Sequence record: LT603033
DNA: 64,000 bases
Source of the DNA: Escherichia phage vB_Eco_slurp01
Reading direction: 5' to 3' (one strand)
Part shown: positions 26,096 to 62,964 of the stretch, piece by piece
Position numbering within the stretch: the first letter of the stretch is position 1
How the letters are laid out: the number at the start of each line of letters is the position of its first letter
Position numbers and translations under genes: made by a program
Notes under the pieces: model-generated
Databases searched by the model: none
Told to the model about the DNA's origin: nothing
What the model saw: only the letters and a program-made list of their open reading frames with translations

Positions 26096-27238
26096 TTATA
26101 TTATATTTAATTTTTGATATGTGGGATATATTTCTTGACTTGGTTTATCTAAAATATATTGTACGTTACCTGCACCATATAAACTACCATCAATAGTAGC
26201 TAATTTAACATTAGTATCACCAGCCACCCACGATGTCATTTTTGATGCACCTGGAACTAAAGTTGTATTTTTTACGCTGGTGGAAACGGAATTTACCCCC
26301 AAACTACTACTTAAGTTATATCCACTACTATAAACTTCACCATTAATTCTAAATTTAACGTATACTGGTAAGTTAACAGCATTACCATAGTTGTAGTTTG
26401 TATGCTTTATAAAACGAAACTCTGAACTTACATATGTTTCCGGTTGAGCTACACTGTATATATTGTATGACTGAAAGGTACTACCAGCCGCAGAATTTAA
26501 TAATCCAGTGTCCCCAGTATAGCCACTAAAATAAACTGAAGTAGCATCACTCCACATAAAACAAGATGTTGCAGTTAAATAAAAATCAATCACATTTGAC
26601 TTAACTACTCTTGGTGTCAGGTAACCAGTACCGCCCACAGTTGTGAAGCAGTTGAATCTGTTCTCACCCCACGCAACAACGTCGCCATTCGATCTTATTC
26701 CACATGCGTTCAGATGACCAAATTGCATTTTAGAAACACCAGTAAGGTTTGTATTTTGTGTCCATGTAGGGGCGTATGTTGTAGTACTTGCTAACCCAAT
26801 CATACCATATAAATTAGAACCTAAAACCCAAACTGAACCATCGGCGTTTACAATAACAGTTGCATGATCACGTGCAACATATATTTCGCTCGCATTGTCA
26901 AATTTGTCTTTGATTAAACTATCAATGTTAATAAAAACATTACCACTATCTCCATATGCATATGCTGCTCCACTAAACCAATATGAACTATCATTTTTTA
27001 AAATAGTTAATCCAGACTGACTAAACCAAAAATTAACCACATTTTCGGCTATTAATGTACGTACTGTAAGTGTTGTTCTATTTCCTAATCCAAATTGACC
27101 TGCTGATTGAGTCCCACTTGCATATAATTTACCATCACTTGTAAGTATTATACAACCATTTATTGTTAAATCTACTTTTTTTATATCAAGTGGGATTATC
27201 ATATTCCCGTACTGAATCATTCTTGCAAAAGGTAACAT
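26096..27238 (-). CDS. RCC1-like repeat protein paralog 3
   Basis: 380 aa; N-terminus MLPFARMIQYGN; GQFGLGN-type repeat motifs. Confidence 0.8.
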   Translation of the reverse strand: MLPFARMIQYGNMIIPLDIKKVDLTINGCIILTSDGKLYASGTQSAGQFGLGNRTTLTVRTLIAENVVNFWFSQSGLTILKNDSSYWFSGAAYAYGDSGNVFINIDSLIKDKFDNASEIYVARDHATVIVNADGSVWVLGSNLYGMIGLASTTTYAPTWTQNTNLTGVSKMQFGHLNACGIRSNGDVVAWGENRFNCFTTVGGTGYLTPRVVKSNVIDFYLTATSCFMWSDATSVYFSGYTGDTGLLNSAAGSTFQSYNIYSVAQPETYVSSEFRFIKHTNYNYGNAVNLPVYVKFRINGEVYSSGYNLSSSLGVNSVSTSVKNTTLVPGASKMTSWVAGDTNVKLATIDGSLYGAGNVQYILDKPSQEIYPTYQKLNII

Positions 27239-47683: not shown

Positions 47684-47930
47684 GCAGTTTACAAATCTTT
47701 ACAATTGCCGGTATTGACTTATTTTGTCAGTACTGGCATAATGTATTCATTGGCAGATAAGCCGTAGCCCATAGGGTGCGGGAGTGTATCTATAGAAAAA
47801 GTAGTTTATTACAGTTACAATTGTGCACCCGGTGGGTTAGCTGTTGTCATGGGGTATATTATGCCAGTACTGGATAGTGCTGTCAATACCTTTTTACTAT
47901 TCAGTACTGAAAACTATTTTTAAAAAGTAC

Positions 47931-48108: not shown

Positions 48109-48720
48109 ATGAAAACTATCACTACTACTACTTTCGTTATGGATTTTTCTGAATTGAACGCAGAACAAAAAACGTCAGCTATCGAACTGGTTCGGGAACG
48201 TGAAAAAAACTCAAACGACAATTATTTTTCTGAAAGTGAAATTGAATACTATAAAGAAACAGTACTACCGGAATATGGCATTAATGACGCTGAAATACAA
48301 TTCAGTGGTTTTTGGTCCCAGGGTGACGGTGCATCAATCAGTACTGACCACGTTGACGCAGTGAAGTTTTTACGCAAGGTAAGAGCATTAACTAAGTATC
48401 GCTCAATCCGTCACCTGCTGAATGAAGATGATTTGGCGATGAGTGTAAAGCGTTCTCACTCTCACTACTCGCATGAGAACACTGTAAGCGGGTACATTGA
48501 ATCGGCTTACACTGATTTAACCGCAAAACAAGAAACGTTAGTTAATGAGCTTGAGGAACTACTCACTGAAACTATTCGTGAATTGTCACGCAAGTTGTAC
48601 CGTGATTTAGAGAATGCATATGAGGATCAATTCACTACTGAAAACATCGTAGCACTGATTGAGGGTAACGAGTATCAATTCAATGTTATTGATGGCGTAG
48701 TAGAATCAATCGAATATTAA
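48109..48720 (+). CDS. hypothetical protein (203 aa)
   Basis: RBS GAGGG; long clean ORF. Confidence 0.65.
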   Translation: MKTITTTTFVMDFSELNAEQKTSAIELVREREKNSNDNYFSESEIEYYKETVLPEYGINDAEIQFSGFWSQGDGASISTDHVDAVKFLRKVRALTKYRSIRHLLNEDDLAMSVKRSHSHYSHENTVSGYIESAYTDLTAKQETLVNELEELLTETIRELSRKLYRDLENAYEDQFTTENIVALIEGNEYQFNVIDGVVESIEY

Positions 48721-49287: not shown

Positions 49288-49291
49288 CAAC

Positions 49292-49322
49292 GCGGGGAGA
49301 TAATAACTCCCCGTTACTTTTT
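49292..49322 (+). terminator. intrinsic terminator
   Basis: CGGGGAG-ATAATAAC-TCCCCG followed by TTACTTTTT. Confidence 0.6.
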
Positions 49323-49529
49323 CAGTACTGAATCATTTAATAGACGGATCTCGGCACCCTGTGGGTTAGTGACTGTATCGTCTTTATGTAGTAATTATGC
49401 CAGTACTGGATGCACTTGTCAACAACTATTTTTCAAATACTTTTTATTAAAATACTTGCTAATAGTTTTTAAACGCGTATAATGTTTTGCATAGGGGAGC
49501 GGTTCCCCTGGTAACTAAGGAATAAGAAA

Positions 49530-53589: not shown

Positions 53590-53596
53590 AAAAAGT

Positions 53597-53628
53597 GGTT
53601 GACTTCGGTCAGCCATTTTGCTATTATA
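53597..53628 (+). promoter_or_regulatory. stem-loop/promoter hybrid (PeSL-like)
   Basis: TGGTTGACTTCGGTCAGCCA + TTTTG + TATTAT. Confidence 0.55.
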
Positions 53629-53800
53629 TATTCATTGAGAGATAGCTCACTAGCCCACAGGGTGCAGGAGTGTATCTATTGTATAATGTTTGAGTACTGA
53701 AAACTATTTTTAAAAAAGTACTTGAAAACTATCTCAATTGGCGTATAATGTTTTACATCGCAAGGGGAAACGGTTTCCCCTGGTAATAAGGAAACGAATC

Positions 53801-55058: not shown

Positions 55059-55256
55059 ATGATTAGCATGAAATCAGTACAAAAACAAATAGAAACATTA
55101 TCAAAAATTAAACGTAAACAGTACTCGTTAGAATATACAATCAATGGTAACTATCATCTAATGAAAGAGAATAATTTCATTGTCATTGATGAATCATTGC
55201 AAATCATTAGTATAGTACTGAAAGCATTAATCAATGACAGAAAAAAATTAAAATAA
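55059..55256 (+). CDS. hypothetical protein
   Basis: ATG at 55059/55068; weak RBS; about 65 aa. Confidence 0.45.
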   Translation: MISMKSVQKQIETLSKIKRKQYSLEYTINGNYHLMKENNFIVIDESLQIISIVLKALINDRKKLK

Positions 55257-55587
55257 TATATTGACAATATCCTCCAGTACTGGCATAATACTTACATCAA
55301 GACGAGAACGTCACTAACCCATAGGGTGCACAAATGTAACTGTATAATATTGATCAAAAAATGATCTGATCAATACTTGATCAATTTGCGTAAAGTAGTA
55401 TAATTCTATGCAGTTGGTTAGACGAAAGGTTATGATTAGTAGTGCAAGTGTATAAAAATTTTCATGGTGTATCGTTTCGCACATATGGGGATGAATATGT
55501 GGTATCATGTGGATTGGAAAAAGTAAGAACAAGTAATATTATTGTCGCATTACAGTACTATAGTATTTTTATAATGAGGTTAAAATA
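55257..55587. promoter_or_regulatory. 330-bp non-coding control region with tandem promoters and TTGATCAA/GATC cluster
   Basis: TTGACA...CATAAT; conserved AACCCATAGGGTGCA motif; TATAAT then TTGATCAA x3 (4 GATC in about 35 bp). Confidence 0.5.
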
Positions 55588-55845
55588 ATGGCTGTAGGAT
55601 TCGCGAAAGATGGGGCCGAACAAGACGAGATTAACGCAGTGATTCAGGCCGCCGTTAACCACGCTAGAAAGCAAATTAACGCACAAATAGAATCACTGAT
55701 ACATTGCCTCGACTGCGGCGATATAATCCCTGAGAAACGACGCCAGGCCGTTAAGGGGTGTAAGTACTGCATAACTTGCCAGGAGGATCATGATAGTACT
55801 TTTAAACGTCCCCCGCGTAATTGTTGGCATAGATCTATGAGATAA
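55588..55845 (+). CDS. DksA/TraR-family C4 zinc-finger protein
   Basis: C-x2-C-G-x-x-I-P-E-x-R-R...C-x2-C pattern (CLDCGDIIPEKRRQAVKGCKYCITC); RBS GAGG. Confidence 0.6.
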   Translation: MAVGFAKDGAEQDEINAVIQAAVNHARKQINAQIESLIHCLDCGDIIPEKRRQAVKGCKYCITCQEDHDSTFKRPPRNCWHRSMR

Positions 55846-57188: not shown

Positions 57189-57202
57189 AAATAATTGAAA
57201 AA

Positions 57203-57235
57203 GGGATTGACTCCGGTCAGTCCCTTTGCTATTAT
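57203..57235 (+). promoter_or_regulatory. stem-loop/promoter hybrid (variant)
   Basis: GGGATTGAC-TCCG-GTCAGTCCC + TTTGC + TATTAT. Confidence 0.55.
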
Positions 57236-57362
57236 ATACGCATAGAAACAAATCAGCCCACCGGGTGCATAAATGTATCTATTATATGCTGGTGGCTAGT
57301 ACTGAAAACTATTTTTAAAAAGTACTTGCATTGTACTTAGAATCAAGTATAATGTTTTACAT

Positions 57363-59871: not shown

Positions 59872-60456
59872 ATGCGTAATTATACTAAATTCATCCGTAC
59901 ACTGTCAGAAATGGAAACCAACAAAGAGATCCTTTCAGCTTGTCGGTTAGCTGGTCTGGAGATCATCGGTGCGGGTTCTTCCCGTATTGTATTCGCTTTA
60001 AATGATCGGTTAGTGATCAAGGTCGCGAATTGTGATGCGGGTGTAGAACAAAATGAAACTGAATGTAAGGTATGGAATTTTTTAGATTATGACCGCCCTC
60101 AATTGAAACAGTACTTTGCAAAGGTGCATATGCATTTATGCGATCCTGATAATATGTTTATCGTTATGGATCGGTTGAGTACTGCAAGTAAAGGCAGTGT
60201 GAAGCACGTTAACGCGTGCAACGAATTAAAGTACAATATTAAACGTAATGCCATTGAACGCCAGCACCGCTTTGCTGATGCACTACAACACGTCGATGAT
60301 ACATTATCAACACTAACGATAAGAGATATCAGAAAACAGAATATCGGCCAGGATCGTAATGGCCTTATTAAAGTACTTGATTACGGTTTAACCCGCAATA
60401 TCTGGAATCAGTACTATAAAAAGCGTGATGTAAAAGCCGTAACTATAACACGATAA
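59872..60456 (+). CDS. kinase-like fold protein (candidate atypical Ser/Thr kinase)
   Basis: RBS AAGGAG; IGAGSSRIV...VIKVA (Gly-loop + Lys), IRDIRKQNIG (catalytic-loop-like), VLDYG (DFG-like). Confidence 0.55.
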   Translation: MRNYTKFIRTLSEMETNKEILSACRLAGLEIIGAGSSRIVFALNDRLVIKVANCDAGVEQNETECKVWNFLDYDRPQLKQYFAKVHMHLCDPDNMFIVMDRLSTASKGSVKHVNACNELKYNIKRNAIERQHRFADALQHVDDTLSTLTIRDIRKQNIGQDRNGLIKVLDYGLTRNIWNQYYKKRDVKAVTITR

Positions 60457-60470
60457 AAAAGATTAAAAAA

Positions 60471-60503
60471 GGGATTGACTCCGGTCAGTCCCTTTGCTAA
60501 TAT
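60471..60503 (+). promoter_or_regulatory. stem-loop/promoter hybrid (variant)
   Basis: GGGATTGACTCCGGTCAGTCCC + TTTGC + TAATAT. Confidence 0.55.
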
Positions 60504-60687
60504 ATATTCATTGAGAGATAACTCACTGACCCACAGGGTGCATAAGTGTATCTATTATATAAGTATTCAGTACTGAAAACTATTTTAAAGTATTTGATAA
60601 AAAGTACTTGCATTGTACTTAGAATCAAGTATAATGTTTTATATCGAGAGGGGGAAATGGTTCTCCCTGGCAATAAGGAATAAAATC

Positions 60688-62721: not shown

Positions 62722-62738
62722 CAAAAAAGAATAAAAAA

Positions 62739-62771
62739 GGGATTGACTCCGGTCAGTCCCTTTGCTATTAT
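62739..62771 (+). promoter_or_regulatory. stem-loop/promoter hybrid (variant)
   Basis: GGGATTGACTCCGGTCAGTCCC + TTTGC + TATTAT. Confidence 0.55.
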
Positions 62772-62964
62772 ATACGCATAGACAAAAACTAGCCCACAGG
62801 GTGCATAGGTGTATCTAAAATATATAGTTAATAACGGTGAGTAACTATCTGCTGGTGGAGTGAAAACTATTAATAAAAAGTATTGACAAAGTATATCAGT
62901 ACTGCAATAATGTATCTCGTAGGGCGGCAATGGTGCGACGGTCCACAAAGTTAGGAGATTCAAA

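What the first reader, a model, noticed from the sequence alone, without database searches (positions are those of the whole stretch)
55257..55587. Promoter-proximal cluster of three TTGATCAA palindromes (four GATC sites) in a 330-bp non-coding region upstream of the DksA/TraR-like gene
Immediately downstream of a TATAAT box (about 55343..55348) the sequence TTGATCAAAAAATGATCTGATCAATACTTGATCAA (55350..55384) contains three copies of the 8-bp palindrome TTGATCAA. The position fits an operator for a dimeric repressor, and the GATC density suggests possible Dam-methylation or SeqA-dependent regulation. A second promoter follows, and the region ends at a gene encoding a DksA/TraR-type zinc finger, a family that binds the RNA polymerase secondary channel.
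Basis: partly seen in the sequence, partly recalled or inferred. Interest (0 to 1): 0.5.

Follow-up and report, generated by a model that had tools for sequence, protein, structure and literature searches.

The report
GATC dyad sites in phage cassette
The GATC-rich palindromes are real, unique in the genome and kept by selection, but they sit in the two-promoter control region of a small optional early gene of a jumbo E. coli phage rather than in a non-coding leader of the DksA-like gene; they are most likely a methylation-sensitive protein-binding site, and what binds them is unknown.

Summary
The window is an Asteriusvirus jumbo coliphage, 98.8% identical to PBECO4. The sequence is as described, except that only two of the three 8-mers are perfect TTGATCAA (55350, 55377); the middle one is CTGATCAA. 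The four GATC form two 15-bp dyads, GATCA-N5-TGATC (55352-66, 55368-82).

The cluster is not chance. GATC is depleted (obs/exp 0.47 in a 350-kb relative), and this locus is the only one there with 3 or more GATC in 35 bp. The 121Q clade (79% identical) and Erwinia phage Hallingskeid keep dyad 1 at a fixed place and re-create further GATC sites elsewhere.

The "330-bp non-coding region" is a 332-bp optional cassette. It is absent from about 7 of 35 relatives and flanked by TTAAAATAAT repeats. It holds:
- early promoter P1;
- a structured leader RNA, one of 9 copies in the window, with no Rfam match;
- the dyads;
- a second promoter P2 with a GATC in its -35;
- a real 48-aa gene (dN/dS about 0.2), coupled to the DksA-like gene.

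The TATAAT at 55343 is not a promoter.

Best reading (confidence 0.4): dyad-symmetric, Dam-methylation-sensitive operator sites controlling P2. Fis binding, RNA hairpins and a pac-like site are weaker rivals. Interest is modest.

The parts
55248..55257 (.). Left copy of the 10-bp direct repeat TTAAAATAAT, at the stop codon of the upstream 65-aa ORF (55059..55256). It is the left boundary of the 332-bp cassette.
   Evidence: Sequence. In G17 the upstream ORF and the DksA-like gene share a single copy of this repeat and the cassette is absent.
55261..55289 (+). Promoter P1: TTGACA-17-CATAAT with a TG extension (11 of 12 matches). The inferred transcription start is near 55296-55297.
   Evidence: Promoter scan. 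It is 94-100% identical in four of five 121Q-clade phages and 74% in Turkey3. It belongs to the window's family of early promoters.
55290..55350 (+). Structured leader element. It comprises hairpin GACG-AGAA-CGTC (55301-55312), ACTAA, CCC-ATA-GGG-TGC (55318-55329) and ACAAATGTAACTGTATAAT. It is one of 9 copies in the window.
   Evidence: Covariance model R1 scores it at 54.8 bits, E 1e-10. Helix 1 covaries. It is 97-98% identical between clades. No Rfam match.
55352..55366 (.). Dyad 1: GATCAAAAAATGATC, with GATC at 55352 and 55363. It is centred about +63 from the P1 start and about -52 from the P2 start.
   Evidence: Its first GATC starts 22 nt after GGGTGC in the window, the 121Q clade and Hallingskeid. 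It is 88-94% identical between clades. It is the only strict Fis-consensus match in the window.
55368..55382 (.). Dyad 2: GATCAATACTTGATC, with GATC at 55368 and 55379. Its right half is the -35 of P2.
   Evidence: This position is specific to the window lineage. A second dyad lies at +1..+15 of P2 in the 121Q clade and across the -10 in Hallingskeid. It is missing in the recombinant cassettes L237 and L239.
55377..55404 (+). Promoter P2: TTGATC-16-TATAAT (10 of 12 matches). The inferred start is near 55411. A Shine-Dalgarno-like AAAGG lies at 55425-55429.
   Evidence: Promoter scan. The -10 is invariant in all cassettes. The 121Q form, AAAAAGTACTGGATCA-N16-TATAAT, aligns with the standard early promoters AAAAAGTACTTGCAT-N17-TATAAT.
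55442..55588 (+). Small gene of 48 aa with a GTG start (phrog_38664). Its stop overlaps the ATG of the DksA-like gene (TAATG).
   Evidence: PHROG E 7e-36; the Hallingskeid homologue hits the same family at E 5.8e-7. There is a CBB homologue. dN/dS is 0.17-0.26 between clades and 0.00-0.16 within the 121Q clade. AF2 predicts four strands and a helix, pLDDT 86.
55580..55589 (.). Right copy of the direct repeat TTAAAATAAT. It is the right boundary of the cassette.
   Evidence: Sequence and alignment with G17.
55588..55845 (+). DksA/TraR-type zinc-finger gene (85 aa). It is the downstream neighbour, not part of the cassette.
   Evidence: PF01258 E 1.6e-10; phrog_54 E 1.1e-18.

Best explanation
The GATC cluster is a cis-regulatory protein-binding module in a tandem-promoter control region. 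That region belongs to a dispensable early-gene cassette of a jumbo coliphage.

The module consists of dyad-symmetric 15-bp sites, GATCA-N5-TGATC. Dyad 1 is conserved. It lies just after the structured leader of promoter P1 and about 52 bp upstream of the start of promoter P2. A second dyad, or at least a GATC, overlaps the RNA-polymerase contact region of P2: the -35 here, +1..+15 in the 121Q clade, and the -10 in Hallingskeid.

A dimeric protein bound there would block or modulate P2 and could obstruct read-through from P1. That would set the expression of the 48-aa gene and the translationally coupled DksA-like gene. Each half-site carries a Dam target, so occupancy is probably sensitive to the adenine-methylation state (unmethylated, hemi-methylated or fully methylated). 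That would tie expression to the time since injection or replication.

Shown: the sites, their rarity, their conservation and turnover, their position relative to the promoters, and their dispensability.

Inferred: that a protein binds, that binding is repressive, and that methylation matters. The binder is unknown; SeqA, Fis and a phage protein are candidates.
For: - Unique density in a GATC-depleted genome.
- Three lineages keep the GATC pairs although the surrounding sequence is only 49-63% identical.
- All six dyads in the three lineages read GATCA...TGATC, so more than the bare GATC is conserved.
- Dyad 1 sits at a fixed offset in all three lineages.
- P2 is a credible member of the phage's early promoter class, and its -35 carries a GATC in every Asteriusvirus cassette examined.
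- The second dyad always falls within -40..+20 of P2.
- The hosts are Dam-positive enterobacteria (established knowledge). Relative TH47 encodes a PF05869 Dam-family methyltransferase (E 3.5e-33), and relatives are annotated with an N6-adenine methyltransferase (PMC11895373, PMC7247149).
- Two GATC about one helical turn apart on the same DNA face is the geometry SeqA requires (PMC2691817).
Against: - No binding protein was identified.
- The cassette's own 48-aa protein shows no DNA-binding fold. Its CBB homologue has a plain promoter with no GATC sites.
- The recombinant cassettes L237 and L239 lack any second dyad, so a two-operator design is not obligatory.
- The A-run between dyad 1 and the P2 -35 varies by up to 3 bp within the 121Q clade. 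Dyad 1 is therefore locked in register to the upstream leader rather than to P2.
- SeqA and Dam need only GATC, which does not explain the conserved inner A/T of each half-site.
- The GATC specificity of the phage methyltransferase is unknown.
- The palindromes would equally form RNA hairpins.
Confidence: 0.4

Rival explanations
1. The dyads are binding sites for the host nucleoid protein Fis, or another methylation-indifferent sequence-specific dimer. The protein bends or occupies the DNA between P1 and P2. GATC is only part of the recognition sequence and Dam plays no role.
For: - GATCAAAAAATGATC matches the published Fis consensus in all three forms found in the literature: GNtYAaWWWtTRaNC (PMC2816674), GNNYAWWWWWTRNNC (PMC3302801) and GNTYAAAWTTTRANC (PMC6907758).
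- It is the only strict match in the 64-kb window. Two of the four strict matches in 350 kb of TH47 are GATC dyads, one of them dyad 1 of the TH47 cassette.
- The conserved inner A/T and the variable A/T-rich centre are what Fis prefers.
Against: - The Fis consensus leaves position -6 free and allows C or T at -4, yet all 12 half-sites are exactly GATCA. GATC itself therefore seems to be selected.
- Loose Fis-consensus matches are not enriched in the window: 4 found against 5.3 expected.
- The centres of several dyads contain C or G (ATACT, AGAAA, AATCT).
- The consensus resemblance is a lead, not a binding test.
Confidence: 0.2
2. The palindromes act in RNA. Dyad 1 is the 3' hairpin of the P1 leader element. 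In the 121Q clade the second dyad is the 5'-terminal stabilising hairpin of the P2 mRNA. Both take the place of hairpins found in the phage's other early transcription units.
For: - Dyad 1 keeps an exact offset from the covarying leader RNA.
- Other copies of the leader carry the palindrome TTCAGTACTGAA at about the same offset.
- Standard early mRNAs start with a GGGGAAAC..GTTTCCCC hairpin. In the 121Q clade the second dyad sits at that position.
- RNAalifold predicts exactly these hairpins.
Against: - The stems are short and A/U-rich.
- The leader fold is not significantly more stable than shuffles (z = -1.73).
- No compensatory change occurs in either dyad: every pair is invariant or broken.
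- RNA pairing would not require GATC.
- In the window and in Hallingskeid the second dyad lies upstream of the P2 start.
Confidence: 0.15
3. The cluster is a genome-level DNA site: a packaging (pac) signal like that of P1, or an origin or unwinding element with SeqA-sequestered GATC repeats.
For: - The P1 pac site has seven TGATCA/G hexamers whose Dam methylation controls cleavage (PMC10028697).
- The same 17-mer, TTGATCAAAAAATGATC, is repeated five times between TerS-like and TerL genes in the unrelated viral contigs L158 and L218. GGATCAAAAATTGATCC arrays lie next to a TerS-like gene and near a Dam gene in L149.
- The locus lies in the direct terminal repeat (the vB_Ec-M-J annotation).
Against: - The whole cassette is missing from G17, Sharanji, phAPEC6, ph0011, UE-S1, ECO103 4-12-1 and EC22.5-2, so it cannot be an essential pac site or the sole origin.
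- It lies about 9-13 kb inside a DTR of about 21 kb, not at an end (PMC11895373).
- No DnaA, IHF, CRP, FNR or LexA boxes occur in 55200-55620.
- It is far from any terminase gene.
Confidence: 0.05
4. The cluster has no function of its own. It is a by-product of local duplication of a TGATCAA-containing -35-like sequence (TTGACA to TTGATCA) within a fast-evolving spacer.
For: - The P2 -35, TTGATCA, differs from the standard TTGACA by one inserted base.
- Sites 3 and 4 lie in the least conserved part of the cassette.
- The second dyad can be lost.
Against: - GATC is counter-selected genome-wide (0.47), yet 3-5 copies persist here in every lineage, including another genus.
- Dyad 1 is conserved while neighbouring spacer sequence is near saturation: dS of the adjacent gene is 0.8-1.2.
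- New dyads arose at three different positions, all with the same GATCA-N5-TGATC form.
Confidence: 0.08

Closest known systems
Dam/SeqA-controlled GATC clusters at promoters (E. coli dnaA promoter and oriC sequestration; IS10 and Tn5 transposase promoters; the P1 cre promoter)
   Same: Several GATC sit within or next to promoter hexamers. The paired sites lie about one helical turn apart on one DNA face, which is the geometry SeqA binds (PMC2691817). The host is Dam-positive.
   Different: The sites here are full 15-bp dyads with conserved flanks, which neither Dam nor SeqA needs. The setting is an optional early-gene cassette of a lytic jumbo phage. No methylation dependence has been shown.
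Dyad-symmetric operators of helix-turn-helix dimers (lambda/434/P22 repressors, LexA, CRP-type sites)
   Same: The sites are 15-bp inverted repeats with 5-bp half-sites and a variable A/T-rich centre. There are two sites, one overlapping core promoter elements.
   Different: No cognate repressor gene is evident. The adjacent small protein has no DNA-binding fold. The position of the second site relative to the promoter differs between lineages.
Fis binding sites (consensus GNtYAaWWWtTRaNC)
   Same: Dyad 1 matches every specified position of the loose consensus and is the only strict match in the window.
   Different: All half-sites are exactly GATCA, which is much more restricted than Fis requires. 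Binding has not been tested.
Bacteriophage P1 pac site (seven TGATCA/G hexamers, Dam-regulated cleavage; PMC10028697)
   Same: Both are clusters of TGATCA-type hexamers in a phage genome. Similar arrays lie next to terminase genes in the unrelated viral contigs L158, L218 and L149.
   Different: The cluster here is in an early-gene control region, far from any terminase gene and from the genome ends. It is absent from close relatives.
PeSL mobile promoter/terminator cassettes of T4-like phages (PMC2839356, PMC4122927)
   Same: A small early-gene unit carrying its own early promoter is present or absent between close relatives. Its junctions fall in short repeated regulatory sequences. Neighbouring units have composite terminator-hairpin and promoter motifs.
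   Different: The junction here is a 10-bp repeat at a stop/start overlap (TTAAAATAAT), not a PeSL. The units additionally carry a conserved structured leader RNA.

Membership tests
SeqA/Dam-regulated GATC cluster | Two or more GATC on the same helical face, within about 1-3 turns | tested here: met
   GATC-N7-GATC (11 bp centre to centre) twice in the window and in both other lineages. PMC2691817 reports that SeqA prefers GATC pairs on the same DNA face; its crystal complex has 9 bp between the sites and its binding assays test 5-34 bp.
SeqA/Dam-regulated GATC cluster | A GATC-specific adenine methyltransferase active on this DNA | tested here: inconclusive
   Host E. coli has Dam (established knowledge). 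Relative TH47 encodes a PF05869 Dam-family protein (E 3.5e-33) and no D12-class Dam. Its sequence specificity and the methylation state of phage DNA cannot be determined here.
SeqA/Dam-regulated GATC cluster | Expression or protein binding changes with methylation state | not testable with these tools
   This needs dam and seqA hosts, methylation-aware sequencing, or gel shifts with methylated and hemimethylated DNA.
Dyad operator of a dimeric repressor | Inverted-repeat half-sites with centres about one helical turn apart | tested here: met
   GATCA-N5-TGATC in 6 of 6 dyads across three lineages.
Dyad operator of a dimeric repressor | Overlap with the promoter's core or RNA-polymerase footprint | tested here: met
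   Dyad 2 contains the -35 of P2. The second dyad lies at +1..+15 in the 121Q clade and across the -10 in Hallingskeid. Dyad 1 is centred at about -52. Promoters and start sites are predicted, not mapped.
Dyad operator of a dimeric repressor | An identifiable cognate DNA-binding protein | tested here: not met
   The cassette's 48-aa protein has a four-strand plus helix fold with no significant PDB match and no Pfam domain. Its CBB homologue lacks the sites. Other phage or host proteins were not screened.
Fis site | Match to the 15-bp consensus G-N2-Y-A-W5-T-R-N2-C | tested here: met
   Dyad 1 matches fully and is the only strict match in the window. Dyad 2 matches except for one C in the centre. 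Consensus forms come from PMC2816674, PMC3302801 and PMC6907758.
Fis site | Fis binding and a Fis-dependent effect | not testable with these tools
   This requires a gel shift or footprint, or a fis mutant.
P1-type pac site | Clustered TGATCA/G hexamers | tested here: met
   TGATCA at 55351, 55367 and 55378, plus TGATCT at 55362.
P1-type pac site | Located at the packaging start or terminase gene, and indispensable | tested here: not met
   The cluster lies inside the early region of the DTR, about 9-13 kb from record ends. It is absent from 7 related phages.
Replication origin with GATC-rich unwinding element | Initiator boxes (DnaA or iterons) beside an AT-rich GATC repeat; indispensable or one of several origins | tested here: not met
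   No DnaA box with up to 1 mismatch, and no IHF site, in 55200-55620. The cassette is dispensable. A role as a non-essential, transcription-primed origin cannot be excluded.
PeSL-like mobile early-gene cassette | Presence/absence polymorphism of a promoter-bearing small-gene unit between close relatives, bounded by short repeats | tested here: met
   A 332-bp unit bounded by TTAAAATAAT at 55248-57 and 55580-89. It is present in 26 records and absent in 7.
PeSL-like mobile early-gene cassette | Composite terminator stem-loop plus early promoter at the junctions | tested here: not met
   P1 of this cassette is not embedded in a hairpin, and the junction is a stop/start overlap sequence. Neighbouring units at about 53.6, 57.2, 60.5 and 62.7 kb do have hairpin-embedded -35 elements.

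The most novel reading that the evidence does not exclude
The GATC dyads are an epigenetic timer in a lytic jumbo phage. Their methylation state is set by host Dam or by the phage's own PF05869 methyltransferase, and is read by SeqA or a dedicated dimer. It switches a tandem-promoter unit whose upstream promoter carries a nut-like structured leader RNA repeated about 10 times in the early region. This would couple expression of an accessory early protein and a DksA-like RNA-polymerase modulator to injection or replication.
Probability: 0.12. Interest if true: 0.6.

Novelty: new member of a known kind. Interest (0 to 1): 0.35.

Why it matters
If the dyads are methylation-sensitive operators, this would be an example of Dam- or SeqA-type epigenetic control inside the early programme of a lytic jumbo phage. 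Regulation in this group is essentially unstudied.

The practical gains are more certain:
- The analysis re-annotates a supposed non-coding stretch as an optional cassette with a real 48-aa gene.
- It defines two promoters.
- It exposes a repeated, covarying leader RNA, about 10 copies confined to roughly 17 kb of the early region and absent from Rfam. This RNA is probably the more interesting object for follow-up.

Tried and rejected
- **Known RNA families:** Rfam gave nothing at the gathering threshold or by E-value.
- **RNA fold of the P1 leader:** not significant, z = -1.73. RNAalifold showed no compensatory change in the dyads.
- **TATAAT at 55343 as a promoter:** rejected. It has no -35 and was not returned by the promoter scan, it lies in the 3' part of the repeated leader, and Hallingskeid reads AAATAT at the aligned position.
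- **Minus-strand 72-aa ORF 55314..55532 (annotated in SHEFM2K):** rejected, because it is interrupted by stops in the 121Q clade.
- **The 48-aa protein as autoregulator:** there is no DNA-binding fold or PDB match and no Pfam domain. The CBB homologue lacks the GATC sites.
- **Protein homologue search:** it returned only 2 proteins.
- **pac site or origin:** rejected because the cassette is dispensable and its position is wrong, and because no DnaA, IHF, CRP, FNR or LexA boxes were found.
- **Second GATC cluster at 59928-60352:** it lies inside a 213-aa ORF and is not comparable.
- **Suspected cassette duplication in Salmonella phages SD-6_S16 and SD-15_S21:** rejected. The second BLAST piece is only promoter similarity.
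- **IMG/VR scan for tandem dyads:** most hits are coding tandem repeats.
- **Full-text search for TTGATCAA:** uninformative.
- **Metagenome scan:** it added only one recombinant cassette form plus three chance hits.

Full report
**Identity of the window.** The 1.2 kb around the finding is 98.8% identical to Escherichia phage PBECO4. It matches 35 phage records, those with a taxonomy line examined being Asteriusvirus, with genomes of about 310-386 kb. In records that keep the terminal redundancy, the locus lies about 9-13 kb from an end. In vB_Ec-M-J it falls under a "Direct Terminal Repeats" feature. The DTR of relative Sharanji is 20,668 bp (PMC11895373).

**The observation.** TATAAT lies at 55343-55348, and TTGATCAAAAAATGATCTGATCAATACTTGATCAA at 55350-55384, with GATC at 55352, 55363, 55368 and 55379.
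- Only two octamers are the perfect palindrome TTGATCAA (55350, 55377). The middle one is CTGATCAA.
- The better description is two 15-bp dyads, GATCAAAAAATGATC (55352-66) and GATCAATACTTGATC (55368-82). Each is a pair of GATC 11 bp apart.

**Is it more than chance?** Yes.
- The window has 126 GATC against about 210 expected, and this is its densest 35-bp stretch.
- I assembled 350 kb of relative TH47. GATC there is 573 against 1231 expected (0.47), the second most depleted 4-bp palindrome after GCGC.
- The cassette is the only place in that genome with at least 3 GATC in 35 bp, at least 4 in 70 bp, or at least 5 in 120 bp.
- Only three GATCA-N5-TGATC sites exist in 350 kb, and two of them lie in the cassette.
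- The Poisson expectation for 4 GATC in 31 bp is about 3e-3 per genome.

**The region is an optional gene cassette, not a non-coding leader.**
- In G17, Sharanji, phAPEC6, ph0011, UE-S1, ECO103 4-12-1 and EC22.5-2 the match covers 73% of the query. In G17 the upstream ORF abuts the DksA-like gene directly.
- The missing piece is 332 bp, bounded in the window by direct repeats TTAAAATAAT (55248-57 and 55580-89). Each repeat spans a stop codon, and the right one overlaps the ATG of the DksA-like gene.
- Inside lies ORF 55442..55588 (GTG start, 48 aa), which is a real gene. It belongs to phrog_38664 (E 7e-36). The 60-aa protein of Erwinia phage Hallingskeid hits the same family (E 5.8e-7). Pectobacterium phage CBB has a 49-aa homologue.
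- dN/dS is 0.17-0.26 between the PBECO4 and 121Q clades and 0.00-0.16 within the 121Q clade, with dS of 0.8-1.2 between clades.
- The minus-strand ORF annotated in one relative is closed in the 121Q clade.
- AlphaFold gives a four-strand plus helix fold (pLDDT 86) with no significant PDB neighbour.

**Promoter architecture.**
- P1 (55261-55289, TTGACA-17-CATAAT, 11 of 12 matches) and P2 (55377-55404, TTGATC-16-TATAAT, 10 of 12) are the best sigma-70-type matches.
- The 121Q-clade form of P2, AAAAAGTACTGGATCA-N16-TATAAT, aligns with the phage's standard early promoters, AAAAAGTACTTGCAT-N17-TATAAT. P2 is therefore an ordinary early promoter whose -35 has become T(T/G)GATCA.
- The TATAAT at 55343 has no -35 and was not returned by the scan. 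It falls in the 3' part of a repeated leader element. In Hallingskeid the aligned position reads AAATAT.

**The leader is a repeated structured RNA.**
- The first 60 nt after P1 (55290-55350) are 97-98% identical between clades, although the adjacent gene is near synonymous saturation.
- The core CCCAYAGGGTG recurs downstream of strong promoters in this window and in RaK2, GAP32, Hallingskeid and related contigs.
- In a MAFFT alignment of 45 distinct copies, a short hairpin upstream of the core covaries. All 4 pairs show double changes (13-15 sequences each). The covariation score is 0.293 against 0.125 in shuffles (0 of 500 reach it) and at most 0.093 when the partners are slid.
- A covariance model finds 9 copies in the window, all between 45.6 and 62.8 kb. 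It finds 10 in TH47, all within about 17 kb. Rfam has no match.
- The usual unit is: terminator/promoter, leader RNA, palindrome TTCAGTACTGAA, standard early promoter, 5' hairpin, gene. The cassette has the same tandem-promoter layout, with GATC dyads where the other units have AGTACT palindromes.

**Comparative behaviour of the GATC sites.**
- Identity between the two Asteriusvirus clades runs 88-94% over dyad 1, 59-63% from there to the P2 -10, 100% at the -10, and about 50% in the P2 5'UTR.
- The 121Q clade nevertheless has five GATC: dyad 1, a GATC in the P2 -35 (TGGATC), and a new dyad CTGATCAA(A/T)TCTTGATCAA at +1..+15 of P2.
- Hallingskeid, from another genus, has dyad 1 at the identical offset from the leader core. 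It has a second dyad, TTGATCAATAATTGATC, spanning the -10 of its own P2 (TTGACT-17-AATAAT).
- All six dyads read GATCA-N5-TGATC.
- Two metagenomic contigs carry a recombinant cassette with only dyad 1 and the -35 GATC, so a second dyad is dispensable.
- The CBB homologue of the small gene has a plain promoter without leader or GATC sites. The element is therefore not obligatorily tied to that gene.
- An A-run between dyad 1 and the P2 -35 varies by up to 3 bp in the 121Q clade. Dyad 1 is thus locked in register to the leader, not to P2.

**Mechanism.** The data show a selected, GATC-specific, dyad-symmetric DNA (or RNA) element in the P1-P2 control region of a dispensable early cassette.
- I favour a protein-binding operator whose occupancy depends on adenine methylation (confidence 0.4). 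Each half-site is a Dam target in a genome that otherwise avoids GATC. The hosts are Dam-positive. The phage group encodes a PF05869 Dam-family enzyme (PMC7247149). The 11-bp spacing is the same-face geometry SeqA requires (PMC2691817).
- The conserved inner A/T of each half-site argues that more than GATC is read. That fits a dedicated dimer or Fis.
- Dyad 1 matches the Fis consensus completely and is the only strict match in the window. Fis alone does not explain why all 12 half-sites are exactly GATCA.
- RNA hairpins cannot be excluded, but they have no covariation support.
- A pac-like or origin role is unlikely. The cassette is absent from relatives, lies mid-DTR, and has no DnaA or IHF boxes. 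Even so, near-identical arrays flank terminase genes in the unrelated contigs L158, L218 and L149, and P1 pac uses TGATCA/G hexamers (PMC10028697).

**Comparison with known systems and novelty.**
- The element works most like Dam/SeqA-sensitive promoter regions or classical dyad operators. Membership in either class cannot be settled without experiments.
- The cassette as a whole resembles the PeSL-mediated mobile early-gene units of T4-like phages (PMC2839356, PMC4122927). Its junctions, however, are stop/start overlap repeats.
- I rate the GATC element as a new member of a known kind, with modest interest (0.35).
- The repeated covarying leader RNA found on the way is less expected and deserves its own study.

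Noticed in passing
window 45595-45655(-), 47741-47800(+), 47804-47863(-), 49333-49393(-), 53626-53686(+), 55290-55350(+), 57230-57289(+), 60502-60562(+), 62766-62825(+): A repeated promoter-proximal structured leader of about 60 nt. It has a covarying 3-5-bp hairpin with a purine-rich loop, then CUAR-CCC-AYA-GGG-UGC-N6-GUAUCUAU. There are 9 copies in the window and 10 in 350 kb of TH47, all within about 17 kb of the early/DTR region. It is conserved in RaK2, GAP32, Hallingskeid and related contigs and has no Rfam match. The layout (variable hairpin plus conserved linear box just after early promoters) recalls nut or rrn antiterminator sites, but its function is unknown.
   Followed up: partly
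window 49290-49425 (- strand): A candidate small-RNA gene. A consensus promoter (TTGACA..CATAAT) is followed by the leader motif, TTCAGTACTGAA, and a strong hairpin CGGGGAGTTATTATCTCCCCG with a T-run about 100 nt downstream. It converges on a plus-strand gene. Equivalent units occur in RaK2 (L019) and in contigs L013 and L014.
   Followed up: partly
window 47700-47905: Two strong promoters face each other about 130 bp apart. Each is followed by the leader motif, so the two motifs form a long inverted repeat. The same mirror arrangement occurs in GAP32 (L011 1500-1650) and in contigs L013, L014 and L102.
   Followed up: no
window (whole) and TH47 L230-L236: Extreme avoidance of some palindromes. 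GCGC occurs 0 times in the 64-kb window and 0 times in 350 kb of TH47 (171 expected). CGATCG, CAGCTG, AGGCCT and AGCGCT also occur 0 times (about 34 expected each). GATC is at 0.47 of expectation.
   Followed up: partly
window (284 sites) and TH47 (909 sites): AGTACT is 7.7-fold over-represented against base composition (909 against 118 expected). It recurs at fixed places in the early promoters: just upstream of the -35 (AAAAAGTACTTGACA), in the spacer before the -10 (CCAGTACTGGCATAAT), and as TTCAGTACTGAA after the leader RNA.
   Followed up: partly
window about 53590-53630, 57195-57235, 60465-60505, 62730-62770: Composite terminator/promoter motifs. The -35 TTGACT is embedded in a hairpin (for example GGGATTGACTCCGGTCAGTCCC) followed by TTTGCTATTAT. 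This resembles the PeSL elements of T4-like phages (PMC4122927).
   Followed up: no
L158 2817-2910; L218 about 1370-1470; L149 7650-7800: Unrelated viral contigs carry tandem arrays of the same kind of dyad. L158 and L218 have five copies of TTGATCAAAAAATGATCA in an AT-rich island between TerS-like and TerL genes of a high-GC phage. L149 has repeated GGATCAAAAATTGATCC after a TerS-like gene, with a D12 Dam gene about 1 kb away. These are probably Dam-linked pac sites.
   Followed up: partly
L237 and L239 (metagenome contigs OERM01000014.1, OERD01000139.1): A natural recombinant of the cassette. The 5' part is of the 121Q type (CGATCAATAAATGATC...GGATCAA) and the 3' part of the PBECO4 type, with the crossover at GATCAATTT. 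It keeps only three GATC.
   Followed up: yes
L133 661-705 (Pectobacterium phage CBB): The CBB homologue of the 48-aa gene has a 13-bp perfect inverted repeat, AGTACTCGCATAG...CTATGCGAGTACT, running from the transcription start region into the start codon. It may be a translational control hairpin.
   Followed up: no
TH47 record 26415-26429 (L230): The only other GATCA-N5-TGATC dyad in that genome, GATCAATTTTTGATC. It lies in an intergenic spacer just after a terminator-like hairpin and about 45 bp upstream of a minus-strand gene start.
   Followed up: partly
TH47 record 48196-48720 (- strand, L230): A 174-aa PF05869 Dam-family N6-adenine methyltransferase (NPPY motif), about 46 kb from the cassette and outside the window. 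No D12-class Dam homologue was found.
   Followed up: partly
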